DNA of 64,000 nucleotides from a virus. Taxonomy: Duplodnaviria; Caudoviricetes. Position 1 is the stretch's first letter; every line of letters starts with the position of its first letter. The stretch is from the IMG/VR virus record IMGVR_UViG_3300028591_000082, one strand, 5' to 3'. The translations under genes and the position numbers were made by a program. Of the stretch, positions 1 through 15,018 are shown one piece after another. The notes beneath the pieces are model-generated. The model had not been told where the DNA came from. It searched no databases and was given only the letters and a program-made list of their open reading frames with translations.

Positions 1-2
1 AC

Positions 3-152: not shown

Positions 153-170
153 TTGTTAGATAGATAATAT

Positions 171-202
171 AAAAAGGAGGTTGTTAAAACCTCCTTTTTT
201 TT
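171..202 (+). terminator. Intrinsic terminator after capsid gene
   Basis: AAAAAGGAGGTT-gtta..-AACCTCCTTTTTTTT stem with U tract. Confidence 0.85.
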
Positions 203-267
203 GTTTATAGATATTAAAATCATAAAATGGTTTTTAACAAAGTTAATTTATATTGGAGGAATTTTGT

Positions 268-1281
268 ATGAAAATTCAGAAAGAGTTTGATGTTATTCAA
301 GCATCAACAACAGTAAGAATAGAAAAGACAAGAGAAGATGTAACTCCTATTGTAGGATATAAAAAATTCATTTCCAAAGGAATTGAAATTGATGGAGAAG
401 TAGTTAATCAGAGACTCGAAACAGTATTGCCAGAGAACGTTGGTACAACTCTCTTCCAAGATACTACTGCAAATGGAGTAAACATTAAGGAAGCTGTAGA
501 AAATACAACAGCTAAAGCAACAGTTGAGTATGCTGAAAAGACTGGCCAGAGACCTTATATTGAAATGAAGTATAGACAGCCAGCTGCAAACCCAGATGGT
601 GGAAGTGGCTCAACACCAACACCAACACCAGTAACAGTTGCTAAGCCAATAATTTCTATTACATCAGACGGTAAGGTTACTATTACTTGTGCAACAGCAG
701 GAGCAACAATTTATTATACAATAAATAATACTAACCCTTCAGATGCTTCAACAGAATATGCAGGACAGTTCACACTTGCTGATAGTGCAACTGTTAAGGC
801 AATTGCTTATGCAACAATCGAAGGTGAAGAAAAGGTTTCTGCAGTAGTTTCTAAAACTTATACAAAACAGTCTACACCACCACAGCCAACAACTTTCACA
901 GTTTATCATGGTGTTACAACACTTGACTATGATGGAATGTCAAATCAAAACACAGTTGGAACATATCTTGAAGGTGCCGTAACAGCAGAAGTTATTAAGG
1001 GTCTTACAAGATCAGTAGTATCAAATCAATATCAGGATTATTCATTTACTGGTACAGATGAAGATGATGATCATATTTCAACAGCTATTGTTGCATTCCC
1101 AAGTACAGCTGAACCAATTTTACCAGGAATTATGTTTAATGGAGAAATTAAACAGTCTTCAGGTTATCACAAATTCAATGTTGAAATTGACGGCGTAGAT
1201 TATGTTGTATTTGCACTTAAGGGTGGATTAGCAGATTCTGGATCTACAGCTGATGTATATTTCAGAGCAAGCTTTAACTAA
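268..1281 (+). CDS. Putative head decoration protein with Fn3-associated/CHB_HEX_C Ig-like domain
   Basis: KP.I...G.VTITCATAGATIYYT....P...S.EY...FTL..SATVKAIA motif; PT linkers; GGAGGA SD before ATG 268; directly after capsid gene. Confidence 0.65.
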   Translation: MKIQKEFDVIQASTTVRIEKTREDVTPIVGYKKFISKGIEIDGEVVNQRLETVLPENVGTTLFQDTTANGVNIKEAVENTTAKATVEYAEKTGQRPYIEMKYRQPAANPDGGSGSTPTPTPVTVAKPIISITSDGKVTITCATAGATIYYTINNTNPSDASTEYAGQFTLADSATVKAIAYATIEGEEKVSAVVSKTYTKQSTPPQPTTFTVYHGVTTLDYDGMSNQNTVGTYLEGAVTAEVIKGLTRSVVSNQYQDYSFTGTDEDDDHISTAIVAFPSTAEPILPGIMFNGEIKQSSGYHKFNVEIDGVDYVVFALKGGLADSGSTADVYFRASFN

Positions 1282-1305
1282 TTATAATTTTTAGGAGGAA
1301 AACAA

Positions 1306-1641
1306 ATGGTAATAAGCGAAACACTTGAAAATAACACAATGACACCAAATTTTGGAAGAGATACTTTTGCTACACTTGCTGAAATGAAGGCAGTATCTAA
1401 GAAAAAGATGCCACAGATGATTATAGCTACTTGCCAGGAAGATGGTAAAGTTTATATTTATAATAAATCAAACGCAGAAGATGATACTTTGGGTCTTTGG
1501 AGACCACTTGCTACAGAAGAAAAAGTAGAAGAAGAAACAGAAACAAATAAGCTTACATATGTATTGCTTGAAAATCAAGCAGCTTATGATGCTATAGAAA
1601 CAAAAGATCCAAACACTCTTTACCTTATAAAGGAGGAATAA
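1306..1641 (+). CDS. Putative virion protein, module A N-terminus plus C-terminal 'YDAI..KDPNTLYLI' motif
   Basis: N-terminal ~65 aa paralogous to 2284 and 3735; AGGAGG SD. Confidence 0.6.
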   Translation: MVISETLENNTMTPNFGRDTFATLAEMKAVSKKKMPQMIIATCQEDGKVYIYNKSNAEDDTLGLWRPLATEEKVEEETETNKLTYVLLENQAAYDAIETKDPNTLYLIKEE

Positions 1642-1642
1642 A

Positions 1643-2233
1643 ATGATAGTAAGCAAGAATAACGAGAGTGTCAGAGTTGTATCTGGCTTTTATCAAGGTT
1701 ATGGACTTGCTGGTATCTGGAACAAGGGAGTATATGTCCCTTTTACTAATGAGGAAGAAGTTCTTTTCTCAACAGTTAAGGGATATGTAGTTCTTACAGA
1801 TGGTGTGTCACCAGGAGATAATACACCAGCATTTAATGGAGCTACTGTATCAAAAGAACAACTTATAGCTGGACTTAAAAATTGTATTTTAAATTATGAT
1901 ATTGTAGAAATGAAAAAACCATTTGAAGCAGAAGTTGTTTTCAATGAAACTGAAGTTCCTTATACAGATAACGAAGATAACGAATTCCCATTTGGCTTTT
2001 TTGCAATAGAAAAAGCAGCATTACCAGATGGAGCTACTATAGATAATATAGTTACAAAGACAATTAACCCTATAAATAATGAGATTGTTAAATCTAGTGC
2101 ATATGAAATAGGAGAATTAAGCGTCGTTTATAACGAAGGTGAGCCTGAAGAAAAAACAATAGAATATTATGTTATTATTGGTAAGGCAAATGTTTCTGGA
2201 CAAGGAATTATACTTTATCCAACAGTAGAATAA
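1643..2233 (+). CDS. Hypothetical (likely virion) protein
   Basis: ORF with SD, coupled to upstream gene. Confidence 0.55.
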   Translation: MIVSKNNESVRVVSGFYQGYGLAGIWNKGVYVPFTNEEEVLFSTVKGYVVLTDGVSPGDNTPAFNGATVSKEQLIAGLKNCILNYDIVEMKKPFEAEVVFNETEVPYTDNEDNEFPFGFFAIEKAALPDGATIDNIVTKTINPINNEIVKSSAYEIGELSVVYNEGEPEEKTIEYYVIIGKANVSGQGIILYPTVE

Positions 2234-2239
2234 AAATAT

Positions 2240-2270
2240 AGCTAAGAGGCATTTATGCCTCTTAGCTTTT
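2240..2270 (+). terminator. Intrinsic terminator
   Basis: GCTAAGAGGCAT-tt-ATGCCTCTTAGC-TTTT. Confidence 0.75.
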
Positions 2271-2283
2271 AATGGAGACAATA

Positions 2284-3723
2284 ATGATAATAAATGAATC
2301 ATTTGAAAATAATACGATGCTCCCAAATTTTACTAGAGATATTTATGATACATTGGAAAGCATGAAAAATGTTTCTAAGAAAAAGATGCCACAGATGTAT
2401 ATAGCTCTATGTTTGGAAGATGGTAAAGCATATTTATATAATAAATCGAATGAAGTAGATCAAACACTTGGTCTTTGGAGAGAGTTAAATATTAGTGGAG
2501 GCTCTTCTGGTTCAGGTCTTTCAGAAGAACAACTTTCTCATTTAATGTTCCAGTTCTCAGAGCTTCCATCACAGAGCACAGAAAATATGCCAATTACAAC
2601 TGGTACAAAGGCTTTTAATCTTTCAGATGGAAAGATTTACGAAGCAACAGTAGATGGAAATAATATTACTTGGAATGAAGTTGAAAAAGTAACAATTGGA
2701 GCACCAACTATATCAATTGCAAACGATGGAACAATTACAGTTGGAAATATTACAAATGGAGCAACAGCTTACTATTCATTGGATGGTAGCGAACCTTCAA
2801 TTGCTTATGATCCAGCAAATCCACCACAGGCAGAATATGGTCAAACAGTAAAAGTAAAAGTTGTTAAGAGTGGAATTTCAGCAGAAGCTACACCAGCAAC
2901 TTATACAGTACCAGCACCAACAGTAAGTGTTAATAATGATACTGGATCAATTTCTATTACTCAAAATGCAGTAAATGGAAATACTTATTATACAACTGAT
3001 GGCACAACACCAACTGAAGCTTCAACATTACTTGATGGAATTCCAGAGTTTGACGAAGGACAATCAATAGTTAAGGCAATAACAATTGCAGAAAATAATG
3101 TAGAATCAATAGTAGCAAGTGCAACTTATATAGTACCAGCTCCAACAGTAAATGTTGATGGAACTGGACTTGCAACAATTGCACAGGCTTCTTCTGCAGG
3201 AACAACTTATTATACAATTGATAATACAACACCAACTGCAGCTTCAACTTCTTATAGTGAACCAGTTCAATTAGCAGACGGACAAACAATTAAGGCAATA
3301 ACAATTAATAACGGTGTATCTTCAACAGTGGCACAAAAGAGCTATACAGAAGCTAAACCATATTATTATGGATTTATAAACTCTGATAGTGCTGATGCTG
3401 TAGGAGATTTACCAGCAATAACATTTGCTACATTATCTAATACAGCAAATACAAAGTATGAATCTGAAGAAAATGCTACTAATAAGGCAGTAACAATAAG
3501 CCCAGCAGCAACTTCTAAAGAAGAAAATGCTGAATCAGCAAGCTTTATATTCTATGCTTATCCATCTAATTTAGGAAATCTTTCTACATACAACAATGGA
3601 TTTGGAACAGCACCTATAGGTGGTGGATTTACTAAGTTTGTAGATAGTGGATATAACATTTATGTTCAAAATGTAGGTGCTTCATATTCAGCAGGACAAG
3701 GTCCAACTTACACATTTAACTAA
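2284..3723 (+). CDS. Putative decoration/fibre protein: module A plus three Fn3-associated Ig-like repeats
   Basis: Three APT(I/V)...YY(S/T).D..P repeats; module A N-terminus; GGAG SD favours ATG 2284. Confidence 0.65.
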   Translation: MIINESFENNTMLPNFTRDIYDTLESMKNVSKKKMPQMYIALCLEDGKAYLYNKSNEVDQTLGLWRELNISGGSSGSGLSEEQLSHLMFQFSELPSQSTENMPITTGTKAFNLSDGKIYEATVDGNNITWNEVEKVTIGAPTISIANDGTITVGNITNGATAYYSLDGSEPSIAYDPANPPQAEYGQTVKVKVVKSGISAEATPATYTVPAPTVSVNNDTGSISITQNAVNGNTYYTTDGTTPTEASTLLDGIPEFDEGQSIVKAITIAENNVESIVASATYIVPAPTVNVDGTGLATIAQASSAGTTYYTIDNTTPTAASTSYSEPVQLADGQTIKAITINNGVSSTVAQKSYTEAKPYYYGFINSDSADAVGDLPAITFATLSNTANTKYESEENATNKAVTISPAATSKEENAESASFIFYAYPSNLGNLSTYNNGFGTAPIGGGFTKFVDSGYNIYVQNVGASYSAGQGPTYTFN

Positions 3724-3734
3724 GGAGATGCAAG

Positions 3735-4112
3735 ATGGTTATAGGAGAAAATTTTAGCTTAAAAGGAAAATTTCAGAACTTTGAAAGAGATAGTTATGCC
3801 ACACTTGCTGCAATGAAAGCTGTTAAAGATAAAGATTTGCCAAATATCTTCATAGCAACTTGTGAAGAAACTGGTAAACTTTATATCTATAAGAAAACCA
3901 ATGAAGTAGACGAAACTCTTGGCAAGTGGCGTGAAGCTGGCGGTGGCTCTGATTTTGAAGAAGAGACAGACACAATCGACTTCTCTACTTGGCCAGAATT
4001 TGACCCAGATTTGGAAGCTGGTGGTATCATACTTGATGGACAGGGTGGAGCTAACGTAGATGGTTCTAATGTTGGTGTAGACCCAGACGATATTGAACCA
4101 GATGAACCATAA
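3735..4112 (+). CDS. Module A protein with acidic tail
   Basis: NFERDSYATLAAMKAV...CEETGKLYIY...TLGKWR paralogy. Confidence 0.6.
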   Translation: MVIGENFSLKGKFQNFERDSYATLAAMKAVKDKDLPNIFIATCEETGKLYIYKKTNEVDETLGKWREAGGGSDFEEETDTIDFSTWPEFDPDLEAGGIILDGQGGANVDGSNVGVDPDDIEPDEP

Positions 4113-4122
4113 GGAGTGAATA

Positions 4123-4284
4123 ATGGCAAGCACATCAAAGATTACAGTTAACGGTGTTAAGTATGCCGTTAAAGATCAATATCTTAGAGATGAAATTGAA
4201 AAACTGCAAGATCCAGTAACAGCTGGTGACGGGATTGAGATTTCAGCTGACGGCACTGTTTCTCTAGTAGAGGACAATGACTAA
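4123..4284 (+). CDS. 53-aa stand-alone module B protein (not in ORF track)
   Basis: MASTSKITVNGVKYAVKDQYLRDEIEKLQDPVTAGDGIEISADGTVSLVEDND*; AAGGAG SD; similar to N-termini of 7389, 9912, 13405, 14189. Confidence 0.7.
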   Translation: MASTSKITVNGVKYAVKDQYLRDEIEKLQDPVTAGDGIEISADGTVSLVEDND

Positions 4285-4288
4285 AAAG

Positions 4289-4315
4289 AAAGCCTGAGAT
4301 TTCTCAGGCTTTTTT
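4289..4315 (+). terminator. Intrinsic terminator
   Basis: AAAGCCTGAGA-tt-TCTCAGGCTTTTTT. Confidence 0.75.
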
Positions 4316-4332
4316 AGTTTGGAGGAAATATA

Positions 4333-4665
4333 ATGAAATTTATAACATTAAGCAAACTAAATGAAAACTTAAGAAGTTTTTTCAGTAGCATAATTAAACC
4401 TTATATAGATAAAGAACTTGCAAAACCAAGCAGCTTTACAATGACAGCAAACCAACCAGAATGGTGGGATAATAACAATGCTAGTAACACAGTTGTTCCT
4501 GTTGGAAGTAAAGTTTATTTTTCTATATATGGTAATGAAATAACTGTTGTAGAGGGCGATGGTGAAACATCTTTAGGTAGTATAGTAGCACCAACTGGTG
4601 ATTTCAGCATTATGTTTGTTGGTGAAGTAAATGGAGATGTAATTGCTTATCCATATGGAGGTTAA
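4333..4665 (+). CDS. Module C protein
   Basis: MKFITLSKLNENLRSFF..IIKPYI N-terminus shared with 4668, 8212, 12920. Confidence 0.6.
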   Translation: MKFITLSKLNENLRSFFSSIIKPYIDKELAKPSSFTMTANQPEWWDNNNASNTVVPVGSKVYFSIYGNEITVVEGDGETSLGSIVAPTGDFSIMFVGEVNGDVIAYPYGG

Positions 4666-4667
4666 TC

Positions 4668-5870
4668 GTGAAATTTCTTACAAATAACGGATTAAATGAA
4701 AATCTTCATGAGTTTTTTGAGAAAATTGTAAAACCATATATTTCAAAAGAGAAAATAGAATTTCCTTGGAAAAACAAAAAAGTAACTTTTACCAAGAAAT
4801 CAAATTATGATTCTCCTGCAAATTTCATTGTAGATGATACAACTGGCGAAATTATTATGTACTATTCAAAAAAGGATGGAGATACTGTTACTAATACAGT
4901 GTTTTTGAAAAGTACAGATGGAGAAAATTGGGAAGAAGTAGTAAGTAGCTATACTGACAGACCACAAAGTATTGTTAGAGCAAGTAATGGAGACTATTAT
5001 ATTGGACCTCAGATCAATGGCACAACTGTTCCAAAAAATCTTCGTTCTACAGATGATCTAGAAACAATAACTAATGTAGATGCATCAGTTTTACCAGATA
5101 TTAGTGGCGGCATGTTTAATTTTAATAAACAATATGAAATAATCAATTTACCTGATGGTAAGACACTCGCTTATAATAGTAAAGCAAATCTTTATCAGCA
5201 AGATAGCAATGGCAATTTTGTTAGTATTTATAATCCATATGTAGTTGGCTATGAATTACTTGTAACAGAAAATTATGTGTGGATAATAAATCATCATAGT
5301 GGATATACTTATAATTATGTTTACCGAGCTAAACTATGGGAATCAAGTTTAAACTTTGTTCAGGTTTGTACAGTTACAAAAACGGATTATGACAACGCAG
5401 AAAGATGTTTAAGTTTTACAGACGATGAAATTGTTTTAGAGTATGTTTGTTATAAAAATGATACTTATAGTGACTATAAACTTTATTCTATAAAAGGAAA
5501 CGGTACTATTACTCAGTTATCAGTTCAGGATTACTTTAAGGTTCCTGAAAAGCAAGCTGCTTGGAAAGTTACTAAATTAAAAAATGGAAGATTATTTGGA
5601 AGACTAGGATCAGATAAATTATTACGATCTGATGATAATGGTCATAATTGGACTCTTATTACAAATAATGACTATTATTTTAGCAGAATGGCTCAACTGG
5701 ATAATGGCAATGTTTTGATTAGTACAGCAAAAGGTCTTTATGTATCATATGATAACGGAGACAATTTTGAATTAAAAATAAATAAAGATTATTATAAAGA
5801 TTTCTGTGTTTATGGTAATACTGTATCGTTATTAACAAGCGATGGCAATATTGAAACTATGAAATTTTAA
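4668..5870 (+). CDS. Module C plus BNR/Asp-box beta-propeller (putative glycan-binding/receptor-binding protein)
   Basis: Asp-boxes KSTDGENW, RSTDDLET, RSDDNGHNW, SYDNGDNF; GTG start. Confidence 0.65.
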   Translation: MKFLTNNGLNENLHEFFEKIVKPYISKEKIEFPWKNKKVTFTKKSNYDSPANFIVDDTTGEIIMYYSKKDGDTVTNTVFLKSTDGENWEEVVSSYTDRPQSIVRASNGDYYIGPQINGTTVPKNLRSTDDLETITNVDASVLPDISGGMFNFNKQYEIINLPDGKTLAYNSKANLYQQDSNGNFVSIYNPYVVGYELLVTENYVWIINHHSGYTYNYVYRAKLWESSLNFVQVCTVTKTDYDNAERCLSFTDDEIVLEYVCYKNDTYSDYKLYSIKGNGTITQLSVQDYFKVPEKQAAWKVTKLKNGRLFGRLGSDKLLRSDDNGHNWTLITNNDYYFSRMAQLDNGNVLISTAKGLYVSYDNGDNFELKINKDYYKDFCVYGNTVSLLTSDGNIETMKF

Positions 5871-5883
5871 GAGTATCGTTGTA

Positions 5884-6633
5884 ATGTTATTATCAATTGT
5901 AATACCATTCTGCGACAATGATTATAAGCTCCTTGATAGAGCTATAAATTCTATCAGGGAGCATATTAAATTCAATGATTATGAAATTGTTGTTGTAGAT
6001 AATAGGGAAGAAAAAAAAGAAGAAAAAATCTCATTAGAAAACATAAAAATCATTTCAAAAGGATATAATTTTTATACATTTGAAAGTAGAAGGTTTGGGT
6101 TTCAAAATTCTACTGGTAAGTTTATTTGGAATTTTGATGCTGATGATGAAATGATTGGTGATTTGTTTGAAGAAGATATTAAAGAAGATTATGAGTTTCT
6201 TCAAATGTATTATTTGCATGATGAAAAAACTAGACCAAAACCAATTCCACTTTTAAAAAGATACAACCCATCATTATTTGGGCCATGCGTTTGGTCTAGA
6301 TTATATAGAAGAGATTTGTTGGAAAAGATTTATACAAGATTAGAAAAACCAATAATAGTACCAAAATTTGAAGACAGAATTCTTTTTGACTTTGTGCTAT
6401 CTTATAATCCAAAATATGAATATATAGAAAGACCAATTTATATGTACAACCATTCAGTTTCTACAACTAATACAAAACTTGTAGAAAGGGTTGACAAAAT
6501 TGGAATAGGCGGATACGATTATCCTTATGAAGTTTTAGGTAAACCTAATGCTGCAGAAGATTTAAAAAGAAGAGTAGGAATTATATGTCAAAATTTGAAA
6601 AGGAACAGACGTTTCAATACCCAGATGTGTTGA
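5884..6633 (+). CDS. Glycosyltransferase family 2
   Basis: LSIVIP...EIVVVDN...R..G...G.FIWNFDADD...VWSRLY...ED GT-A motifs. Confidence 0.85.
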   Translation: MLLSIVIPFCDNDYKLLDRAINSIREHIKFNDYEIVVVDNREEKKEEKISLENIKIISKGYNFYTFESRRFGFQNSTGKFIWNFDADDEMIGDLFEEDIKEDYEFLQMYYLHDEKTRPKPIPLLKRYNPSLFGPCVWSRLYRRDLLEKIYTRLEKPIIVPKFEDRILFDFVLSYNPKYEYIERPIYMYNHSVSTTNTKLVERVDKIGIGGYDYPYEVLGKPNAAEDLKRRVGIICQNLKRNRRFNTQMC

Positions 6634-7373
6634 TAGCTGGATATGGTATAGTTGGAAAACATTTAAAAGAAGAATTTCCATTTGCAAAAACTTACGATCC
6701 AGACAAAGGTCAAAAAGCAGATTATTTTAGACCACCAAAAGATACTTATGATATTGCATTTATAGCAGTACCAACCCCAAACGATGAACACTTTTTTTGT
6801 AATACTTCATATGTTGAAAAAGCAATAGAAGAAATAGATGCAAAGATTTATGTTATAAAATCTACAGTACCTCCAGAAACAACTTCTAAGCTTTCTGCTA
6901 AATATGGGAAAACAATATTGTTTTCACCAGAATATTATGGTAATACACAGTTTGCTTTAAAGCCAGATTTTGTAATTATTGGTGGAAATTTTAAAGCTTA
7001 TCACGAAGTAAGACAATTATATGAGCTTATTAAATCAGCAGACTTTAAATTTTATCATTGTAGTTCTACAGAAGCAGAGATTATTAAATATATGGAAAAT
7101 TCTTTCTTGGCAATGAAAGTGATTTTCTGCAATCAATTTAAAGATATAGCAGATCTTTATGGTGTAGATTATGATAGAATAAGGGATGGATTTATTCTCG
7201 ATAAAAGAGTTGGTGAATCTCATACTTTTGTGTTTGATGATTACAGAGGATATGATAGCAAATGCTTAAATAAAGATATTCCAGCTTTTTCAAGTGCCGT
7301 TAAAGAAAAAGGATTTAATAAACAATTTATAATGGATGTTGTAGAAAACATAAATGATGGTTATAGAAGTTAA
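6585..7373 (+). CDS. ugd: UDP-glucose/GDP-mannose 6-dehydrogenase (short viral type)
   Basis: GYGIVG, FIAVPTP, IKSTVPP, FSPEY, AEIIKYMENSFLAMK, GYDSKCLNKD. Confidence 0.88.
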   Translation: MSKFEKEQTFQYPDVLIAGYGIVGKHLKEEFPFAKTYDPDKGQKADYFRPPKDTYDIAFIAVPTPNDEHFFCNTSYVEKAIEEIDAKIYVIKSTVPPETTSKLSAKYGKTILFSPEYYGNTQFALKPDFVIIGGNFKAYHEVRQLYELIKSADFKFYHCSSTEAEIIKYMENSFLAMKVIFCNQFKDIADLYGVDYDRIRDGFILDKRVGESHTFVFDDYRGYDSKCLNKDIPAFSSAVKEKGFNKQFIMDVVENINDGYRS

Positions 7374-7388
7374 TCTAAGAGGTATAAA

Positions 7389-8219
7389 ATGACAGAGATT
7401 TACTATATAACACAAAATGGTGAAAAAGTTTATCTAAAAGATGCAACTGGACGTGAACTTCTAGCCTCTAAGCAGACAAAATTAAAACCAGGAAATGGAA
7501 TTTCCATTGCTGAAGATGGAACTATTTCTGCTACTGGCGGTGGTTCTGCTAAAGGCTTTTTTATTAATGCAAGTGGCACTTTGAATAATTTATCTTTTGA
7601 TAAAACACCATTAGAATTAAATGATGCAATTGATAATAATAAAGTTGTAATTGTTAAAGTAAATAATGCAAAATTTATTTTAACAGACAAAAAAGATGAT
7701 ACTTATCTTTTTAGTTACTTGGTAGCTTCTGACGAAGAAGATGCTGTTGCTCAATTAGCAACAATATATGCTAAAGGAACAAATAGTTGGCAAGAAATAA
7801 AAACAAGATTTGTTTCTATTAAAACTTCTGATGGAATTGAAACTGGAGCCACAGCAGAATGTGATGGAGATGTTGATTTTTCTACATTTGAAGATTTTGA
7901 TGAAGACAGTATTTCAATCTATGGAAATAAAGTGGAAGAAGAGGGTATAATTTCTAATATAGAACAAAGATATTATGATTCATCAACTGGAAATTATATA
8001 GATCCAAACGATTACAATACAAATGTTAATATCGATGAAGATGATATAGTCGATGAAGAAACAAACAAAATAATAATAGATAATAAAAAGTATTCAATAG
8101 CTGATGAGTATGCTAGAGAAGTATATGAAACATTACAGGATACATTTGTTTTATCTGACGGTTTTGTTATTTCTGAAGATGGAGAATTGTCTTTAAGTGA
8201 GGAGGTTGGAAATGAATAA
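7389..8219 (+). CDS. Module B protein with a second degenerate module B at the C-terminus
   Basis: MTEIYYITQNGEKVYLKDATGRE...GNGISI; C-terminal IIIDNKKYSIADEYARE...DGFVISEDGELSL. Confidence 0.6.
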   Translation: MTEIYYITQNGEKVYLKDATGRELLASKQTKLKPGNGISIAEDGTISATGGGSAKGFFINASGTLNNLSFDKTPLELNDAIDNNKVVIVKVNNAKFILTDKKDDTYLFSYLVASDEEDAVAQLATIYAKGTNSWQEIKTRFVSIKTSDGIETGATAECDGDVDFSTFEDFDEDSISIYGNKVEEEGIISNIEQRYYDSSTGNYIDPNDYNTNVNIDEDDIVDEETNKIIIDNKKYSIADEYAREVYETLQDTFVLSDGFVISEDGELSLSEEVGNE

Positions 8220-9900
8220 ATTAAATAATTCATTTAAGGTTTTTTTGGATAATGTTATTAAACCATTATTAAAAAAACATAATAGTATGAACTATAAAAT
8301 GGATTATGCTGATGGTTCATATAATTCTTTTAAAACATCAACAACATTTGGAGAAATAAATTATAGTGATCCAAAGAGAAATAAAATAATTAAAATATCA
8401 GATAAAGACAAGGCATTATTTGAATGTAATTATTTAGCAGGTAGTGACTCATCATTTAGCAGTTTAAATACCAGAAACAGTTATAAAAAAGTAAAAGAAA
8501 TCGAAGGACTAAAAGATTATTCATTTATTGTAAATGATGGAGTTAGTGGAAGATATATGTTTGTAAAGTGCTTCCCTAATGGCGGAAAAGTATATGTTAC
8601 TATAACAGATAGTAGTTATAATATTTTAGTTGATTATTTGGAAGTTCCAACAAAAATTATTAAATATTTAGGCAGTACTGGTAAAGCTGGTGACGGTTCT
8701 TGGAACTCTTCTCTTGAATACTATTGTTTTTTGGGTTATGAATATGAATCTATAACTGGTGGAAGTATAACACGATACCAATACATTTTTTTAAATAGAT
8801 CAAAACTATTTAGCGATGATCCACAAACTATTCTTCAGGCTTTTGAAGAAGCAAAAGAATATAGAATAGATAATAGTAATCTTGGAGAAGGAGTAGAAGG
8901 AGAAGAATTAGGAAAATATCAAGATTACTATACTCTAACTTATGATACATATGCAACTCTTCAAAGCGGTTTTATTAGTAATTCTTATGCACATGGTATA
9001 TTATATATAGTAAGATTTATTGAAAAACGTCAAGGGTCAGGTTCTTTTGATGGTATAATAAGAGCTGTTGGAACTGTTATAGATTTTGTTAAGAACCAAG
9101 ACGGAACAGATGTAGTAATGAATATTTCAGAAAGAGTTTTAACAGAATTACCAACATTTAGAGCTGATGCTTATGGTCATCATGTACCAAGAGTTGCTTT
9201 TGCAAATGTAAGTTCTTATGATAGCAATAAAACAGGAACTGTAACAATATTCTATGGTAAAAAACTATATGTTTCAGGATTCCCAAAAGTAGAGGTTGGA
9301 ACTGCAATAACAGCAGTACCAAGTTTTACAGAATATACTACTACAGCAGAAGGAGATTTCCAATCAGTTGCTAATCTTGGTCGTAATTATAACACATCAT
9401 ATGATAGTGTATTCCTTGTAGCTGATTCTTATGGTAATATCTATACATACTCTACTAACTATAATACAACAGTAACATTATTAAAATCTAAAGATGAAAC
9501 AAAAAAGTATCATAATTTTAATTACAAAAATTTACAAAACTTTAGTGGTGCTTGGATAACAGATGGTAGTTATGTTACTAGAGATTTGGTTACTTGGTAT
9601 CCATTATCAAAAAAGACAAATTTACCAAATGGAAATTATAATGATGGAAATTATAGTATAAATTATATAGAAGGAAGAGTAATATATGAACTCAATATTG
9701 ATAAACTTATAAGTGCTGAAACTAGTGGCAATATAAGTTGGATAAAATATAATTTATTGTACAATAACAGTAATTACTATCAAAAAGAGAAACCAATCAA
9801 AAAATTAACATTCTTCTATACACAAAATAAAATACCAATGTTAAACTCAATTAATTTTACTATAGAAGATGATAAATATATTATAAATAATAATTATTAG
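8212..9900 (+). CDS. Module C large putative fibre/receptor-binding protein
   Basis: MNKLNNSFKVFLDNVIKP N-terminus; GGAGG SD favours ATG 8212; beta-rich. Confidence 0.55.
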   Translation: MNKLNNSFKVFLDNVIKPLLKKHNSMNYKMDYADGSYNSFKTSTTFGEINYSDPKRNKIIKISDKDKALFECNYLAGSDSSFSSLNTRNSYKKVKEIEGLKDYSFIVNDGVSGRYMFVKCFPNGGKVYVTITDSSYNILVDYLEVPTKIIKYLGSTGKAGDGSWNSSLEYYCFLGYEYESITGGSITRYQYIFLNRSKLFSDDPQTILQAFEEAKEYRIDNSNLGEGVEGEELGKYQDYYTLTYDTYATLQSGFISNSYAHGILYIVRFIEKRQGSGSFDGIIRAVGTVIDFVKNQDGTDVVMNISERVLTELPTFRADAYGHHVPRVAFANVSSYDSNKTGTVTIFYGKKLYVSGFPKVEVGTAITAVPSFTEYTTTAEGDFQSVANLGRNYNTSYDSVFLVADSYGNIYTYSTNYNTTVTLLKSKDETKKYHNFNYKNLQNFSGAWITDGSYVTRDLVTWYPLSKKTNLPNGNYNDGNYSINYIEGRVIYELNIDKLISAETSGNISWIKYNLLYNNSNYYQKEKPIKKLTFFYTQNKIPMLNSINFTIEDDKYIINNNY

Positions 9901-9911
9901 GAGGAAATAAT

Positions 9912-11296: not shown

Positions 11297-11353
11297 ACAT
11301 AAGAGTATAAACCATCGATATGTAAAAATTAAGTTAATCATAGGAGAAAAACG

Positions 11354-11707
11354 GTGAGAACAATTACAGTCGAAAAAATAGATGGTGAATATAAAGTAAA
11401 TACAAAAGCAAAAGCAAGCGCTGGTTCAAATATAGCTTATGCTTGGGTAGAAGAATACGGAAGAGTGTATTACACTAGCTTTGATATAGCACCTGAACAG
11501 GATGCAGCTGAAAATGAGTTTATGCTAGATAGTGATGATTCTGAAACAGGCATACTTGTAAGGGGATTACTGTATGATGCTCCTGGTTATGGTATTGAGT
11601 ATACCAAAATAAGTGATACAGAGTTTTCTCTGGTTAATGAAGCAGAAGGTCGTACATTTACAAGAGACAGTACCAAAGATTTCACATTATGGGAATTGTC
11701 TAATTAA
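11354..11707 (+). CDS. Module D protein
   Basis: MRTITVEKIDGEYKVNTKA N-terminus shared with 12077. Confidence 0.6.
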   Translation: MRTITVEKIDGEYKVNTKAKASAGSNIAYAWVEEYGRVYYTSFDIAPEQDAAENEFMLDSDDSETGILVRGLLYDAPGYGIEYTKISDTEFSLVNEAEGRTFTRDSTKDFTLWELSN

Positions 11708-12134
11708 TTTTGGTGGTTAGCGATGCAAGGAAAAACAAATAGTGTAGTGAATTTAACTGGCTTATATTGTTGGGTAAACAGAAAAACTGGTAGTAATATA
11801 GCCTACTTTTATACTCTTTTTGAAAAACCAGAAATAAATGATATAATTTTTCAACAAAGTAATCTTAGCTCATCCACTAACAATAAAAAGCCATATGCAA
11901 CAACTATTGATAGATGGGTTGGGAAAATAAATAGTGACGGATCTATAGAAAGCTGGTATAATGGCGCCCCTTCTGGAGATCCATATGATAGATGCCCAGA
12001 ATATGATATTGGAAAAACCTGGGGAGTTTTTAGACCAAAGCATGTTTAATTTTTAAGATAGTTGCAGGAAAAAACAATGAGAACAATTACAGTTGAAAAA
12101 ATAGATGGTGAATATAAAGTAAACACAAAAGCAA
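11356..12134 (+). repeat. ~56-bp direct repeat (11356-11411 and 12079-12134)
   Basis: gagaacaattacagt(c/t)gaaaaaatagatggtgaatataaagtaaa(t/c)acaaaagcaa; two synonymous differences. Confidence 0.85.
11723..12049 (+). CDS. Hypothetical protein
   Basis: ORF in operon. Confidence 0.5.
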   Translation: MQGKTNSVVNLTGLYCWVNRKTGSNIAYFYTLFEKPEINDIIFQQSNLSSSTNNKKPYATTIDRWVGKINSDGSIESWYNGAPSGDPYDRCPEYDIGKTWGVFRPKHV

Positions 12135-12916
12135 GTTCTGGAGCTAAAGAGAATACTATAACTTTTTACGCTTGGCAAGAGCAAAATAAAAATAGCGAAG
12201 GTGGACCTGATAGTATAAGCAACAACCTTTCTAGAGGATATGGAAGTGAAAATGTTCATGGGCAAGGAATTATATTCTTTGATTTTGATGTTAGTCCACA
12301 AACAAGAGAAGATTTAATACAATCACATATTCTTTATCAAGGAGTTGTTTATGATTTTTCAGATTATTTTGAAAGAACAGCTCATAATCCGACAACAAAT
12401 ATTTTTAATTATGAAGTTGCTAATGATGGTTTAATTAAATTTGATTACTACTGGAGTAAATACAACACACCTGTACAATTTGCTAGATATGCTTTAGTTG
12501 ATAATATTGAATATAAGATTTCTGATTTTAAAGCAAGCAATACTGCAACTGTTTATGGATATGATCCGTCAACTGGATATGTTGGGCAAAGTAGCCAAAG
12601 AGATCATTCTGAATATTATATGTTTATAAATGCCGATGGTTCTATTGCAACTAAAGATGATTTTTCAAATGTAAATCTTATAATTCGCGGCGGTGCTATT
12701 GGTGGTTCACAAGATATATATTATAAAGGATTAAAACCAGAATTATATGCATCCGAAATGTATGAATTCATAAACATAAATGTTGAAGATACAAATGATA
12801 ACGGAGAGGAAGAAATTATAATATCTGTTAAAGACTCTTCAGATATTGAAATTAGTAGCAGGGCTACAAATGTTTCTGCTATTCAGCTTATGCTTCAAGG
12901 ATATTATGGAGGTTAA
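12077..12916 (+). CDS. Module D protein
   Basis: First 19 aa identical to 11354. Confidence 0.6.
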   Translation: MRTITVEKIDGEYKVNTKASSGAKENTITFYAWQEQNKNSEGGPDSISNNLSRGYGSENVHGQGIIFFDFDVSPQTREDLIQSHILYQGVVYDFSDYFERTAHNPTTNIFNYEVANDGLIKFDYYWSKYNTPVQFARYALVDNIEYKISDFKASNTATVYGYDPSTGYVGQSSQRDHSEYYMFINADGSIATKDDFSNVNLIIRGGAIGGSQDIYYKGLKPELYASEMYEFININVEDTNDNGEEEIIISVKDSSDIEISSRATNVSAIQLMLQGYYGG

Positions 12917-12919
12917 TAA

Positions 12920-13339
12920 ATGAAGTTTATAACTTTAAATAGTTTAAATAAAAACTTAAAGATTTTTTTTAGAAATATAATTAGTCCAAAAATAGAAGAA
13001 GCTAAAGAAACAGCAGTAGGTGCTTTAGCATTAGCAGAACAAGCAAATGAACTAGCATCTGAAGAAAAATTAATAGTTGTTAAAGGAACAGATATTGACG
13101 AAGTTGAGTTTGTGCAAGATGAAACTTATGATGATTATCCATATAAAGCTTCTATTAGAGTTAGCAAAGTTACAGAAAATTTTTCACCAGATGTAAGATT
13201 TGGTCCACAAGATGCTATGAGCGGCAATCTTGCTCCCTTCGCTGATACTGTTGATGGTTATGTAAACATTTATTCAAAAACAGATGATGGTCTCATAGAA
13301 CAGAATTTATTGGCAATTATATTAACAAAAAGTATTTAA
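12920..13339 (+). CDS. Module C protein
   Basis: MKFITLNSLNKNLKIFFRNIISP. Confidence 0.6.
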   Translation: MKFITLNSLNKNLKIFFRNIISPKIEEAKETAVGALALAEQANELASEEKLIVVKGTDIDEVEFVQDETYDDYPYKASIRVSKVTENFSPDVRFGPQDAMSGNLAPFADTVDGYVNIYSKTDDGLIEQNLLAIILTKSI

Positions 13340-13404
13340 GTTAATATACTTGAAAAAAATGAGATATGAAGGTGTTTAAATTATTTTTTAAATAGGAGAT
13401 ATAA

Positions 13405-14178
13405 ATGACAGAAATTAGTTATATTACACAAAATGGTGAGCAGATAAATCTTAAAGATGCTGCTGGTAGAGAAATGTTAGCACAAAAACAGCCTAAGCTT
13501 AAAGCTGGTAAAGGAATTACAATTTCACCCGCTGGAGTAATTAGCGCTGTTGCTGGTAGCGATAGGGTTAAAACAATCGTAGCAGAAGATGTAGAAGTTA
13601 ACGAGTATTCTTCTTGGACAGATTTTACATTTGATGTTGTGGTTGATTATATTGGTAATCCAGCATTAATATCAAAACCTCATGCTATGTTAAGCGAAAG
13701 CGCATCAGCCACTTATAACTTTGAAGATGGATATATGATGGAAATAGGAATAAAAAATGCGCCTGATTTTAATAGTTGGCTTGGACATACTTTTAATGCA
13801 GCTATTAAAGAAGAGATGCTTAAAGAACCAGCCACAGATGACGACTTTTTGATTATTTTCCCAAGAAAAGCTATTACTAAATCTATTGTTTCAAACACTG
13901 AAGGACATGATGTATATGTTCCAGCAGGAGTTCCTGAAGAAAACAATGAATCAGATCTTAGCGTAGTTTATATTTACTTTAAAGATATTGGTAAAGAAGA
14001 CTATCCTATGAATGCTTATACATTTTTTGAGTATGCTGATGATAGCGAACATGATATTTACAGTATGGAATCATCTTACAGTTGGTCTTATATAAATAGT
14101 GATGGTGAAGTTGATTATATTACAAGTCCTTCTGAATATTCAATTTTAGCCATGATGATTAAAGATCTTTTGAAGTAG
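13405..14178 (+). CDS. Module B protein
   Basis: MTEISYITQNGEQINLKDAAGREMLAQKQPKLKAGKGITIS. Confidence 0.6.
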   Translation: MTEISYITQNGEQINLKDAAGREMLAQKQPKLKAGKGITISPAGVISAVAGSDRVKTIVAEDVEVNEYSSWTDFTFDVVVDYIGNPALISKPHAMLSESASATYNFEDGYMMEIGIKNAPDFNSWLGHTFNAAIKEEMLKEPATDDDFLIIFPRKAITKSIVSNTEGHDVYVPAGVPEENNESDLSVVYIYFKDIGKEDYPMNAYTFFEYADDSEHDIYSMESSYSWSYINSDGEVDYITSPSEYSILAMMIKDLLK

Positions 14179-14188
14179 GAGGTATAAT

Positions 14189-14971
14189 ATGACAGAAATT
14201 AGCTATATAACACAAAACGGACAGCAGATAAATTTAAAAGACGCTGCAGGTAGAGAAATGCTTGCAACTAAACAATCAAAGCTTAAAGCAGGTAAAGGAA
14301 TTAATATTTCTGATAATGGAGTTATTTCAGTAAAAGATGCTAAAGGTAGTGATTTTAGTGATCTTGTTATTGAAAATATTCAAGTAACAACAAGTGATGA
14401 AGAATATACATATACAATAGGCAGTATGAATGTTAAGTATAAAGGTAATCTTTCATTGCTTAAGGATGTAATAGACTCTTCTGAATCTTCAGGAAATTTT
14501 TATTTATTGACTTCTATCCTTGACGATAGTTATATAAGAGAACCACTAAACAAGTATGCAAGTTTTTATGATGGTGAAAATTCTTTAGGAAAAGTTGTAA
14601 GCGTTGCTATTAATAAACTTATTGCAAATGGAGATTGTGAAGATACAGGTGAAGATTATCTTTATTTTGTACCAATGACTATTAACAACGTAAATCCTGT
14701 TGGTGGTGAAAGACTTCCAAACAGTCAATTCCATATTGATGAAGAAAGTTGTAATATGATCATTGCCCTTAAAGATGCAGATTATAGTATAAATATTGCT
14801 GAAGAAGAAGAACACAGAGGCGATATTCCTGCTGACTATGACAGTAATCGTTTGGTAGGTGCTTATATTGCTTCAAAAAGCGAGTATGTAGATTTGTATG
14901 AATTCTATTCTAACAGTTACGGTACTGATGGAAGAGAAGGAATATTTACAGAACTAATGGCACTTCTTTAA
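14189..14971 (+). CDS. Module B protein
   Basis: First ~47 aa nearly identical to 13405, then divergent. Confidence 0.6.
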   Translation: MTEISYITQNGQQINLKDAAGREMLATKQSKLKAGKGINISDNGVISVKDAKGSDFSDLVIENIQVTTSDEEYTYTIGSMNVKYKGNLSLLKDVIDSSESSGNFYLLTSILDDSYIREPLNKYASFYDGENSLGKVVSVAINKLIANGDCEDTGEDYLYFVPMTINNVNPVGGERLPNSQFHIDEESCNMIIALKDADYSINIAEEEEHRGDIPADYDSNRLVGAYIASKSEYVDLYEFYSNSYGTDGREGIFTELMALL

Positions 14972-14990
14972 ATAAAAAAGAATTATTAAT

Positions 14991-15018
14991 AAAAGCCAAT
15001 TCTTAAGAATTGGCTTTT
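14991..15018. terminator. Bidirectional terminator
   Basis: AAAAGCCAATTCTTAAGAATTGGCTTTT palindrome between convergent genes. Confidence 0.8.

What the first reader, a model, noticed from the sequence alone, without database searches (positions are those of the whole stretch)
253..14971. Mix-and-match virion-surface gene block: four reusable N-terminal modules on unrelated payload domains
Seen: directly after the capsid gene, 14 ORFs fall into four families defined only by their N-termini. Module A (NFxRD..ATL..MK.V....P...IA.C.E.GK.Y.Y.K.N..D.TLG.WR) occurs at 1306, 2284, 3735. Module B (I...NG....KD...RE....Q..L..G.GI.I..DG.IS) occurs at 4123, 7389 (twice), 9912, 13405, 14189. Module C (MKF.T...LN.NL..FF..I.KP) occurs at 4333, 4668, 8212, 12920. 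Module D (MRTITVEKIDGEYKVNTKA) occurs at 11354, 12077. C-termini are unrelated (Ig/Fn3-associated repeats, Asp-box propeller, acidic domains), and a payload-free module B (4123) also exists. Inference: the modules are docking anchors in a hierarchical head-fibre/decoration assembly that displays interchangeable adhesins, and their DNA similarity could drive payload shuffling.
Basis: partly seen in the sequence, partly recalled or inferred. Interest (0 to 1): 0.8.

Follow-up and report, generated by a model that had tools for sequence, protein, structure and literature searches.

The report
Modular phage fibre array with plug-and-socket docking
A large T4-like gut phage carries a 15-kb block of about 20 genes whose products share a few short docking modules joined to unrelated outer domains. 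Related phages have swapped those outer domains exactly at the module borders, so this is most likely a branched host-binding fibre set of a known general kind, built from docking parts that have not been described.

Summary
Fourteen ORFs at 1306-14971 fall into four N-terminal families (A x3, B x5 plus an internal copy, C x4, D x2), directly after the end of the gp23 capsid gene.

I also found C-terminal modules:
- Domain Y, about 120 aa, in the ORFs at 253 and 2272, and probably 1643.
- An acidic tail T, in the ORF at 3735.
- A second B copy at the C-terminus of the ORF at 7389.
- A Pfam Phage_tail_C motif, in the ORF at 1306.

Seven related arrays keep the order of module types but carry unrelated payloads. 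DNA identity collapses exactly at module ends, and one relative holds a clean hybrid of two window genes.

Module A is always N-terminal in 87 proteins of 79-1608 aa, including Crassvirales. Its payloads there match tail-fibre families or, by eye, look like beta-helix spikes. Its modelled fold best matches the D3' module reported only from tailspikes, but weakly (Z 5.5).

A Y-ending gene lies directly upstream of 64 of 87 A genes, in 16 sequence clusters.

The docking-anchor and cassette-swap reading is supported. The head-decoration reading is not, because the evidence points to tail-type fibres, though a head location is not excluded.

I class it as a new variant of the known branched receptor-binding systems (CBA120, phiKp24). 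Another window of this scan noted the same stretch.

The parts
3..152 (+). C-terminal 49 codons of the gp23 major capsid gene (cut by the window start)
   Evidence: 49/49 identical to the end of L001:1686-3173, which matches Pfam Gp23 at E 2e-55
171..199 (+). Terminator-like hairpin closing the capsid gene; upstream boundary of the block
   Evidence: 12-bp stem followed by a T run
240..247 (+). AAGTTAAT motif, a candidate late promoter. Further copies lie at 7367, 11331 and 13338 inside the block
   Evidence: By my comparison with the ORF starts, 9 of the 12 window copies lie 5-26 nt upstream of a start codon in the right orientation. The number of copies is not above chance
253..1281 (+). First array protein (likely start ATG 268): own N-terminal domain, one Fn3_assoc Ig-like domain, C-terminal domain Y (residues 215-338)
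   Evidence: Pfam; Y HMM E 2e-28; 62% identical orthologue in L001
1306..1641 (+). Module A (residues 1-70) plus Phage_tail_C motif; minimal 111-aa fibre
   Evidence: BLASTP; PF24243 39.9 bits against a cutoff of 23.7; 81% identical orthologue in L001
1643..2233 (+). Protein ending in a divergent Y-like domain
   Evidence: hhalign against the Y profile: probability 73%, E 3e-5. The homologue at the same position in L027 (1643-2152) is picked up by the Y HMM
2240..2267 (+). Palindromic hairpin between the ORFs at 1643 and 2272
2272..3723 (+). Module A, a small beta domain, three Fn3_assoc domains, then domain Y (residues 361-483)
   Evidence: Pfam; AlphaFold2 model with mean pLDDT 84.8; 170 relatives, those listed 290-311 aa; the ten read lack the Ig repeats
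3735..4112 (+). Module A fused directly to acidic tail module T (DFSTWPEF motif); an empty cassette slot
   Evidence: Relatives carry 0, about 113, about 260 or about 360 unrelated residues between A and T
4123..4284 (+). Payload-free module B (53 aa)
   Evidence: Present directly after the A-T gene in all 8 arrays; 83% identical in L027
4289..4312 (+). Terminator-like hairpin after the B-only gene
4333..4665 (+). Module C (about 30-aa N-terminal segment) plus a 78-aa payload
   Evidence: Module 93% identical to L001:6049-6696 while the payloads are unrelated; DNA identity collapses at about 4410-4423
4668..5870 (+). Module C plus a payload with Asp-box (BNR) motifs
   Evidence: BLASTP; BNR hit below the Pfam cutoff
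5884..7373 (+). Family 2 glycosyltransferase (5884-6633) and a short UDP-glucose dehydrogenase-like gene (6585-7373) embedded in the array
   Evidence: Pfam. The same cassette sits at a different array position in L031, at 77% and 73% identity
7389..8219 (+). Protein with module B at both ends (residues 1-49 and 222-271) and an acidic DFSTF motif between them
   Evidence: orthologues in L029, L031 and L034 keep both B copies
8197..9900 (+). Long C protein (likely start 8212). Its payload is unrelated to the 608-655 aa proteins at the same position in L029, L031 and L034
9912..10568 (+). Module B plus payload
   Evidence: 45% identical orthologue in L034, 25% in L031
10547..11296 (+). Second family 2 glycosyltransferase (45% identical to the one at 5884)
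11354..11707 (+). Module D plus an 80-aa payload that also occurs behind other N-termini
   Evidence: The payload is found behind a C-like module in L001:7516-8136 (E 2e-5) and behind an unrelated 115-aa N-terminus in P0277 (E 1e-8)
11723..12049 (+). 108-aa ORF without a module, lying between the two D genes
12062..12916 (+). Module D (start ATG 12077) plus a larger payload
12920..13339 (+). Module C plus payload
13405..14178 (+). Module B plus payload
14189..14971 (+). Module B plus payload; 78% identical orthologue in L031
14991..15018 (+). Terminator-like hairpin; downstream boundary of the block

Best explanation
The block encodes the parts of a branched, multi-protein fibre or adhesin apparatus on the virion surface, most likely attached on the tail side.

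Each protein is a cassette. A short conserved docking module sits at one or both ends: A, B, C or D at the N-terminus; Y, T, a second B or Phage_tail_C at the C-terminus. Between or beyond these lies a freely replaceable outer domain (Ig-like repeats, an Asp-box domain, or small unknown domains).

Domain Y, a roughly 120-aa beta-sandwich at the C-terminus of one protein, probably acts as the socket. Module A of the protein encoded by the next gene probably acts as the plug. A consists of a conserved arm of about 20 residues that is modelled as disordered, followed by a small D3'-like alpha/beta domain. In this way fibres are stacked or branched. In the window the chain would run 253[Y] to 1306[A], then 1643[Y-like] to 2272[A...Y] to 3735[A...T].

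The modules stay nearly identical between related phages, so recombination between co-infecting relatives exchanges payloads at module borders without breaking assembly.

What is shown: the modules, their positions, the swaps, the breakpoints and the Y-A gene pairing. What is inferred: physical docking, trimeric state, presence in the virion and location on the tail.
For: 1. The modules are real and portable. See the BLASTP and HMM results. Among same-module pairs at 50% module identity or more, payloads are unrelated in 14 of 24 (A), 37 of 53 (B), 69 of 78 (C) and 1 of 1 (D).

2. Crossovers fall at module ends. L001:5282-5689 is 85-90% identical in DNA to window 2272 onward for about 240 nt. 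It then switches to 90-100% identity with the tail of the ORF at 3735. Window-to-L001 identity is 80-100% through the B-only gene, the spacer and module C. It falls to noise at about 4410-4423.

3. Eight arrays keep the order of module types while payloads differ.

4. Module A sits at residues 1-70 in all 87 proteins found, from 67 loci, with lengths of 79-1608 aa. Beside a nearly invariant 182-aa Y protein in 24 crassvirus contigs, the A protein takes 16 different lengths from 79 to 1084 aa.

5. A payloads elsewhere match PHROG tail fibre, minor tail and tail collar fibre families. In the crassvirus contigs the sequence after A looks, by eye, like the start of a beta-helix spike.

6. In the fold search, module A residues 17-70 give the top hits, all to tailspike D3' regions. 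The best are Z 5.5, 5.2, 5.2 and 5.0, at rmsd 2.0-3.2 A over 51-55 residues. More than ten tailspike entries appear among the 50 listed. PMC7506556 reports this fold only in tailspikes.

7. Y-A pairing. Sixty-four of 87 A genes have a Y-ending gene directly upstream. Sixty-four of 66 Y genes are followed by an A gene. The gaps are mostly -4 to +26 nt, and the pairs fall into 16 clusters at 50% identity.

8. The second half of module B is a fibre-shaft repeat. It occurs up to 19 times in proteins of 500-5000 aa, and one of these ends in a Peptidase_G2 chaperone domain.

9. The ORF at 1306 passes Pfam Phage_tail_C.

10. In crassvirus cr6_1 the pair lies between the head gene and a Pb4-like tail protein.

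11. A modules of one genome cluster together in the tree, in 4 starred cases, as expected if they share one co-evolving partner.
Against: - No protein of the block has been seen in a virion.
- No solved structure or curated family covers A, B, C, D, Y or T.
- The D3' match is modest. Z 5.5 lies below the roughly 7-8 that unrelated models typically reach as a best hit in this tool. In known tailspikes D3' is an internal module, not the anchor.
- The Y match to the CBA120 TSP4 XD3 docking domain is weak (Z 4.8) and sits among generic beta-sandwich hits.
- Adjacent genes do not prove binding.
- In the window the payloads are small and none is a beta-helix enzyme.
- The block sits right after gp23 and carries Ig-like domains. 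Both features fit head decoration.
- The first A gene of L031 has no Y gene upstream.
Confidence: 0.55

Rival explanations
1. Head fibres or decoration. The modules dock into distinct hexamer or vertex sites of the large T4-like capsid and display adhesins there. This would resemble crAss001 gp21 and gp29, which are small proteins whose N-terminal 38-58 residues sit in hexon pockets, or T4 Hoc.
For: - In the window and in L001 the block follows gp23 directly.
- Many members are 53-140 aa, the size of crAss001 head fibres (PMC10172136).
- Fn3_assoc Ig-like domains are present.
- The several module families could map to several non-equivalent capsid sites.
Against: - The array is an insertion that is absent after gp23 in the other gp23 loci with downstream sequence. 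In L027 and L031 no gp23 is in view upstream of it.
- Module A's best fold match is a module reported only from tailspikes.
- A payloads elsewhere match tail-fibre families or look like beta-helix spikes.
- The crassvirus pair lies in the tail gene cluster.
- The ORF at 1306 matches Phage_tail_C.
- There is no sequence match to any solved head fibre or decoration protein.
Confidence: 0.2
2. Plain tandem paralogues. The genes arose by duplication. The N-termini merely diverge more slowly than the rest, with no docking role and no cassette exchange.
For: - The D pair and the B genes at 13405 and 14189 look like recent tandem duplicates, with similarity reaching beyond the module.
- Copies within a genome cluster together in the module A tree.
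Against: - DNA identity steps sharply from 80-100% to noise at module ends.
- Payloads differ in kind: Ig repeats, an Asp-box domain, acidic tails.
- The same module A is found on unrelated payloads in Crassvirales and in contigs of about 340 kb.
- One payload is found behind three different N-termini.
Confidence: 0.1
3. Not virion parts. The modules are address tags for export, packaging or placement on the host surface of proteins that act in the infected cell. One possibility is action together with the embedded glycosyltransferases on the host envelope.
For: - Two family 2 glycosyltransferases and a UDP-glucose dehydrogenase-like gene lie inside the array.
- No virion data exist.
Against: - Modules A and Y are modelled as folded domains, not short signal peptides.
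- Fibre-shaft repeats, the Phage_tail_C match and tailspike-like relatives point to virion fibres.
Confidence: 0.07

Closest known systems
Hyperbranched tail fibres of Klebsiella jumbo phage phiKp24 (PMC9700779), and the related phiK64-1 and Menlow groups
   Same: Both are jumbo myoviruses with about fourteen fibre genes that sort into four groups by their N-terminal structural parts. The phiKp24 model has peripheral layers docking onto inner ones, with variable outer domains.
   Different: The phiKp24 fibres are beta-helix depolymerases that dock through T4gp10-like domains. Here the window payloads are small non-enzymatic-looking domains. The docking modules (A, B, C, D, Y, T) match no described family. 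Payload-free stubs exist, and several proteins carry modules at both ends.
CBA120 TSP1-4 and G7C gp63.1/gp66 branched tailspike complexes (PMC8825819, PMC7506556)
   Same: Docking is hierarchical, with trimeric spikes sitting on jellyroll XD2/XD3 platforms of another spike. Module A resembles the D3' module of TSP2 and TSP4. The second half of Y aligns weakly to the TSP4 XD3 domain (Z 4.8).
   Different: No XD or gp10-like sequence signal was found. In CBA120, D3' is internal and lies after the head domains and neck, whereas here it is the N-terminal module itself. The socket Y sits at the C-terminus of the preceding gene's product, not at the N-terminus of a primary spike.
Anchor-branch design of Klebsiella podophage receptor-binding proteins, with a conserved docking peptide on the second protein (PMC6872550, PMC13352976)
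   Same: A conserved short N-terminal peptide on the secondary protein binds a branching domain on the primary one, and the two genes are adjacent. The outer parts are exchangeable.
   Different: The sequence families are different. The system here extends to at least four plug types and to chains of three or more links.
crAss001 head fibres gp21 and gp29 and tail fibre gp22 (PMC10172136)
   Same: These are small proteins whose first 26-58 residues insert into a pocket, either a capsid hexon or the tail hub. The outer domains are flexible.
   Different: No sequence similarity was found. The Y-A pair occurs in other crassvirus families (cr6_1, cr52_1, cr60_1, cr109_1, cr113_1), where it is annotated as hypothetical.

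Membership tests
Branched receptor-binding complexes with T4gp10-like docking (CBA120, G7C, phiKp24, Klebsiella anchor-branch) | Several tandem fibre or spike genes with conserved N-terminal structural modules and variable outer parts | tested here: met
   Fourteen ORFs fall into four N-terminal families. Payloads are unrelated in most same-module pairs
Branched receptor-binding complexes with T4gp10-like docking (CBA120, G7C, phiKp24, Klebsiella anchor-branch) | T4 gp10-like XD2/XD3 jellyroll branching domain on the primary protein | tested here: inconclusive
   No Pfam or PHROG hit. Y residues 210-292 align to TSP4 XD3 at Z 4.8, rmsd 2.5 A over 63 residues, among generic beta-sandwich hits
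Branched receptor-binding complexes with T4gp10-like docking (CBA120, G7C, phiKp24, Klebsiella anchor-branch) | Physical attachment to the baseplate and protein-protein docking between members | not testable with these tools
   Only gene adjacency is available: 64 of 87 A genes lie behind a Y gene. No multimer prediction or virion data
Branched receptor-binding complexes with T4gp10-like docking (CBA120, G7C, phiKp24, Klebsiella anchor-branch) | Beta-helix depolymerase bodies as payloads | tested here: not met
   Window payloads are Ig-like repeats, a domain with Asp-box motifs and small unknown domains. Beta-helix-like sequence follows module A only in crassvirus relatives, judged by eye
Tailspike D3' fold module (PMC7506556) | About 59 residues: a four-stranded antiparallel sheet wrapped around a two-turn helix | tested here: inconclusive
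   The model has one short helix and three to four strands in residues 19-67. The top-ranked hits are D3' regions of tailspikes, at Z 4.4-5.5 and rmsd about 2 A over 51 residues. Z is below the level that excludes chance
Tailspike D3' fold module (PMC7506556) | Lies between the neck helix and the beta-helix of a tailspike | tested here: not met
   Module A is at the extreme N-terminus in 87 of 87 proteins. A beta-helix-like segment follows it only in some crassvirus members
Pfam PF24243 Phage_tail_C | Score above the curated cutoff | tested here: met
   ORF at 1306, residues 91-109: 39.9 bits against a cutoff of 23.7. The L001 orthologue scores 36.3 bits
Capsid decoration or head fibres (T4 Hoc, crAss001 gp21 and gp29) | Sequence or fold similarity to a known capsid-binding module | tested here: inconclusive
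   No hit in sequence searches of solved structures with the ORF at 1306, the module A profile or the Y profile. No head protein appears among the listed fold hits. Modules B, C and D were not folded
Capsid decoration or head fibres (T4 Hoc, crAss001 gp21 and gp29) | Stable linkage to the capsid gene module | tested here: inconclusive
   The array is adjacent to gp23 in the window and in L001. It is absent after gp23 in the other gp23 loci with downstream sequence. In L027 and L031 no gp23 lies in the 1.3 kb and 7.5 kb held upstream of the array

The most novel reading that the evidence does not exclude
Domain Y and module A are an undescribed, widely shared socket-and-plug pair. Crassvirales, phages on contigs of about 340 kb and T4-like jumbo phages would all use it to hang exchangeable receptor-binding proteins. 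In arrays like this one, gene order would spell assembly order: each product's C-terminal socket (Y, T, second B) would receive the N-terminal plug (A, B, C) of the next gene's product. The payload-free stubs such as the 53-aa B protein would act as caps or connectors.
Probability: 0.3. Interest if true: 0.8.

Novelty: new variant of a known kind. Interest (0 to 1): 0.62.

Why it matters
Host recognition is the least understood part of uncultured gut and rumen phages. In several crassvirus families the receptor-binding protein is still annotated as hypothetical.

If Y-A is a real docking pair, it marks the hypervariable host-range gene and its conserved adaptor in these phages from sequence alone. 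It also supplies natural rules for which parts can be exchanged without breaking assembly.

The array adds a case in which recombination breakpoints, hybrid genes and empty cassette slots can be read directly from related genomes. Fibre modularity can therefore be tested here rather than assumed.

Tried and rejected
Searches and tools that gave nothing:
- Megablast of 1-15000 against 50,697 phage records found no match.
- PHROGs and Pfam on all block proteins gave nothing for modules A-D, Y or T.
- Sequence searches of solved structures with the ORF at 1306, the module A profile, the Y profile and a B-repeat protein gave only chance hits to WD40, RCC1 and an adenovirus fibre shaft.
- Foldseek against the PDB was swamped by Ig arrays for the 2272 model. 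It gave nothing at E 0.001 or better for the 292-aa model.
- The ESM Atlas search on the N-terminal domain of the ORF at 253 scored at noise level.
- PHROGs on ten other large window proteins, meant to locate baseplate genes, gave nothing useful.
- The word-based search with module C residues 1-40 found only two proteins.
- No whole genome is held for this window. The genomic context of the 170 relatives of the ORF at 2272 could therefore not be read.

Ideas considered and dropped:
- T4-style capsid-targeting or cleavage signals. The LNE in module C is not conserved.
- Recombination between module copies within this genome as the main driver. Exact shared runs are only 7-29 nt.
- Position-specific subtypes of module A. 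The tree groups copies by genome instead.

Full report
**What is in the sequence.** Window 3-152 encodes the last 49 residues of a T4-type major capsid protein. They are identical to the end of L001:1686-3173, which matches Pfam Gp23 at E 2e-55. A strong hairpin at 171-199 closes that gene. Twenty same-strand ORFs then run from 253 to 14971 and end at another hairpin at 14991-15018.
- A at 1306, 2272/2284 and 3735.
- B at 4123, 7389 (both ends), 9912, 13405 and 14189.
- C at 4333, 4668, 8197/8212 (weak) and 12920.
- D at 11354 and 12062/12077.

Pfam finds Fn3_assoc/CHB_HEX_C_1 in the ORFs at 253 and 2272, and Phage_tail_C at the end of the ORF at 1306. It also finds two family 2 glycosyltransferases, a short UDP-glucose dehydrogenase-like protein and a sub-threshold BNR hit in the ORF at 4668. 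PHROGs gives almost nothing. The rest of the window holds a 1043-aa tail sheath, SbcCD-like genes, a helicase and ligases, so this is a large T4-like myovirus. Earlier notes of this scan call it a jumbo phage of rumen Treponema. I did not test the host.

**The block is a lineage-specific island.** Twenty-six loci with gp23 at 39-100% identity were fetched. In those that extend downstream, gp23 is followed directly by reverse-strand genes. Next come a large forward ORF, an SbcC-like gene and an SbcD-like gene, which is the backbone seen at 18-29 kb of the window. None of these loci holds any block protein. Only L001 shares the block. In L027 no gp23 lies in the 1.3 kb held upstream of the array. 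In L029 and L031, a 378-kb contig, none lies in the 7.5 kb upstream. Adjacency to gp23 is therefore not a fixed property.

**Comparative anatomy.** Eight arrays (window, L001, L027, L028, L029, L031, L033, L034) keep the same order of module types:
- a Y-ending protein;
- A with Phage_tail_C;
- a Y-like protein;
- A...Y;
- A...T;
- B alone;
- a small C protein;
- B...B;
- a long C protein;
- B, then a glycosyltransferase.

The payloads are not kept. Among same-module pairs with at least 50% module identity and payloads of at least 60 aa, payloads are unrelated (BLASTP E above 1e-3) in 14 of 24 (A), 37 of 53 (B), 69 of 78 (C) and 1 of 1 (D).

The slot between A and the acidic tail T holds 0 residues in the window, L001 and L034. 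It holds about 113 in L028, about 260 in L027 and about 360 in L029 and L031, and these inserts are mutually unrelated. The long C protein of the window has no similarity to the 608-655 aa proteins at the same position in L029, L031 and L034. The glycosyltransferase/dehydrogenase cassette sits at a different position in L031, at 77% and 73% identity.

**Breakpoints.** L001:5282-5689 is a clean hybrid. Its first 240 nt or so are 85-90% identical to window 2272 onward, covering module A and the Gly/Ser linker. The rest is 90-100% identical to the tail of the ORF at 3735. Relative to the window, L001 lacks the 2272 payload and the A module of 3735. The window and L001 are 80-100% identical in DNA through the B-only gene, the spacer and module C. 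Identity drops to noise at about 4410-4423, the end of module C. Within the window, module copies share only 7-29 identical bases in a row. The homology that matters is therefore between related genomes.

Payloads shared behind different N-termini are few but real. The Fn3_assoc-plus-Y unit sits behind A in L031 and behind a different N-terminal domain in the ORF at 253, at 36% identity over 241 aa. The 80-aa payload of the ORF at 11354 sits behind D in the window. It sits behind a C-like module in L001:7516-8136 (E 2e-5) and behind an unrelated 115-aa N-terminus in P0277 (E 1e-8 against the whole database).

**Module A.** A scan of metagenome contigs with the A alignment returned 67 loci. A profile finds A in 87 proteins, always at residues 1-70, with total lengths of 79-1608 aa. 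The hosts of the module include rumen contigs, contigs of 340-378 kb and human-gut contigs of about 100 kb that read TAG as a sense codon. These last match Crassvirales reference genomes cr6_1, cr52_1, cr60_1, cr109_1 and cr113_1.

Payloads behind A in those phages match PHROG tail fibre, minor tail and tail collar fibre families. In the crassvirus contigs the sequence after A looks, by eye, like the start of a beta-helix spike.

Two AlphaFold2 models were made: the ORF at 2272 (mean pLDDT 84.8) and a 292-aa relative (73.4). Both show a disordered but conserved arm, with residues 1-20 at pLDDT about 35, ending in the invariant NFxRD motif. A small helix-plus-sheet domain follows.

An all-against-all structural search puts tailspikes on top for residues 17-70. 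The hits are Acinetobacter phage Belisarius gp86, vB_ApiP_P1, AS12 gp42, Fri1 gp49 and APK14, CBA120 TSP2 residues 266-329, TSP4, Klebsiella Depo32, a K1 lyase and WceF. They score Z 4.0-5.5, mostly at rmsd about 2 A over about 51 residues. These regions are the D3' module, which PMC7506556 describes as seen only in tailspikes. The Z values are modest, so I treat this as a consistent lead and not as proof.

**Domain Y and the Y-A pair.** The gene directly upstream of the A gene belongs to one family in 52 loci. These proteins have variable N-termini, often an Ig-like domain, and a conserved C-terminal domain of about 120 aa. Its motif runs YxG ... YAYP..fG.L..I.D ... v.YYvY. The C-termini of the ORFs at 253 and 2272 are members, at E 2e-28 and 5e-23. 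The 1643 family is a probable divergent member (hhalign 73%, E 3e-5). The homologue at the same position in L027 is caught by the HMM.

The pairing counts are as follows:
- Y is C-terminal in 62 of 66 proteins.
- 64 of 87 A genes have a Y-ending gene directly upstream.
- 64 of 66 Y genes are followed by an A gene.
- The gaps are mostly -4 to +26 nt.
- The pairs fall into 16 clusters at 50% identity.

Many contigs are near-duplicates, so the number of independent lineages is nearer ten to sixteen than sixty-four. In the largest cluster, 24 crassvirus contigs, the 182-aa Y protein is nearly invariant while the A protein takes 16 different lengths from 79 to 1084 aa. That is the pattern of a conserved adaptor beside a hypervariable receptor-binding protein.

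Y has no Pfam, PHROG or solved-structure sequence match. Its model is a beta-sandwich. Against the PDB it gives only weak hits (Z 5 or less), among them the CBA120 TSP4 XD3 docking domain (Z 4.8) and phage tail or baseplate chains. Against predicted viral structures the 292-aa model gives 34 hits at E 0.001 or better. These include proteins named baseplate wedge, tail fibre and structural protein from cultured Cellulophaga, Erwinia, Dickeya and Tenacibaculum phages. Aligned ranges are not reported there. Assigning those hits to Y is my inference, from alignment lengths of about 125-139 columns.

In cr6_1 the pair lies after the head gene and five hypothetical genes, and before a Pb4-like 1692-aa tail protein.

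**Modules B, C and D.** A profile of B was run against 1.84 billion representative proteins and found 1958 hits. The second half of B (KQxKLxAGxGIxIxxDGxIS) is a repeat unit. It occurs up to 19 times in proteins of 500-5000 aa, and one of these ends in a Peptidase_G2 intramolecular-chaperone domain typical of fibres. The whole of B occurs at the N-terminus of 200-320 aa proteins and alone as 48-59 aa proteins. B is therefore an N-terminal cap plus the first shaft repeat of a fibre.

C is a segment of about 30 residues, too short for wide searches. D is confined to this phage and a few close relatives, and looks like a recent tandem pair. In the module A tree, copies from one genome cluster together in four well-supported cases. 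This fits concerted evolution with a shared partner.

**Head or tail.**

For the tail:
- the D3'-like fold of module A;
- the Phage_tail_C match of the ORF at 1306;
- the fibre repeats;
- the spike and fibre payloads of relatives;
- the position of the crassvirus pair;
- the lack of a fixed link to gp23.

For the head:
- the position after gp23 in this phage;
- the Ig-like domains;
- the small size of many members;
- the crAss001 precedent of small head fibres docked by their first 38-58 residues (PMC10172136).

I put the tail side, including neck or baseplate, at about 0.55-0.6. I put head fibres at 0.2 and the remainder on non-docking or non-virion readings.

**Mechanism proposed.** The proteins would form a chain or tree of probably trimeric units. 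In it, a C-terminal socket (Y, perhaps T and the second B copy) receives the N-terminal plug of the next gene's product. The outer domains act as adhesins, and some may be sugar-modified by the embedded transferases. The L001 hybrid fits this model. It keeps the 2272-type A next to its upstream Y-like gene and keeps T next to the downstream B-only gene, which simply removes one link. Docking, oligomeric state and location are inferred, not shown.

**Comparison with known systems.** The design matches branched receptor-binding systems:
- CBA120 TSP1-4 (PMC8825819, PMC7506556).
- The anchor-branch and docking-peptide scheme of Klebsiella phages (PMC6872550, PMC13352976).
- The jumbo phage phiKp24, with fourteen fibres in four N-terminal groups (PMC9700779).

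It differs in its docking families, which are undescribed. It also differs in having modules at both ends of some proteins, in payload-free stubs conserved across arrays, in small non-enzymatic payloads, and in the Y-A pair shared with Crassvirales. I found no paper describing the pair. I therefore rate it a new variant of a known kind.

Noticed in passing
window 240, 7367, 11331, 16172(-), 16193, 16657, 23825, 30592, 33372, 41672(-), plus 13338 and 44624: AAGTTAAT is not more frequent than chance (12 copies against 11.3 expected). By my comparison with the ORF starts, 9 of the 12 copies lie 5-26 nt upstream of a start codon in the right orientation. These include the ORFs at 253, 7389 and 11354, and large ORFs near the tail sheath. 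It is a candidate late promoter or leader element.
   Followed up: partly
window 5884-7373 and 10547-11296; L031:15623-18630: Two family 2 glycosyltransferases and a short (262 aa) UDP-glucose dehydrogenase-like gene lie inside the fibre array. In L031 the same cassette (73-77% identical) sits at another position in the array, so it moves as a unit. Fibre glycosylation is possible but was not tested.
   Followed up: partly
L027:255-1266: A fifth N-terminal module (motif VEGV.YTYD.ESR.PL) occurs once alone as a 53-aa protein. It occurs once more in front of an Fn3_assoc segment that is 74% identical to that of the ORF at 253, with different sequence on both sides. This gives another payload-free stub and a three-part mosaic.
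   Followed up: partly
window 3975-4000 (ORF at 3735) and about 7870-7900 (ORF at 7389): An acidic DFS(T/x)(W/F)xxF motif is shared by the A-T proteins and the middle of the B...B proteins. It is also present in relatives P0132 and P0152. It may be a short linear docking peptide.
   Followed up: no
L044-L051 and L060-L093 (human-gut contigs of about 100 kb): These Crassvirales contigs need TAG read as a sense codon (Gln assumed) to open their structural genes, including the Y and A genes. Under the standard code module A appears cut into 41-68 aa pieces.
   Followed up: partly
L002:3869-4714 and L003:6035-6880 (reverse strand, directly after gp23): In relatives that lack the block, a flagellin-like gene (N-terminus typical of spirochete FlaB, judged by eye) follows gp23 directly. 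In the window the corresponding gene lies at 18453-19301, beyond the inserted block.
   Followed up: no
L037:655-3048 and L036:3397-5757: Proteins of about 790 aa with long Ig-like arrays end in a divergent Y-like motif. Each is followed by A genes, one of which carries two A modules in tandem (L037:3076-3927).
   Followed up: no
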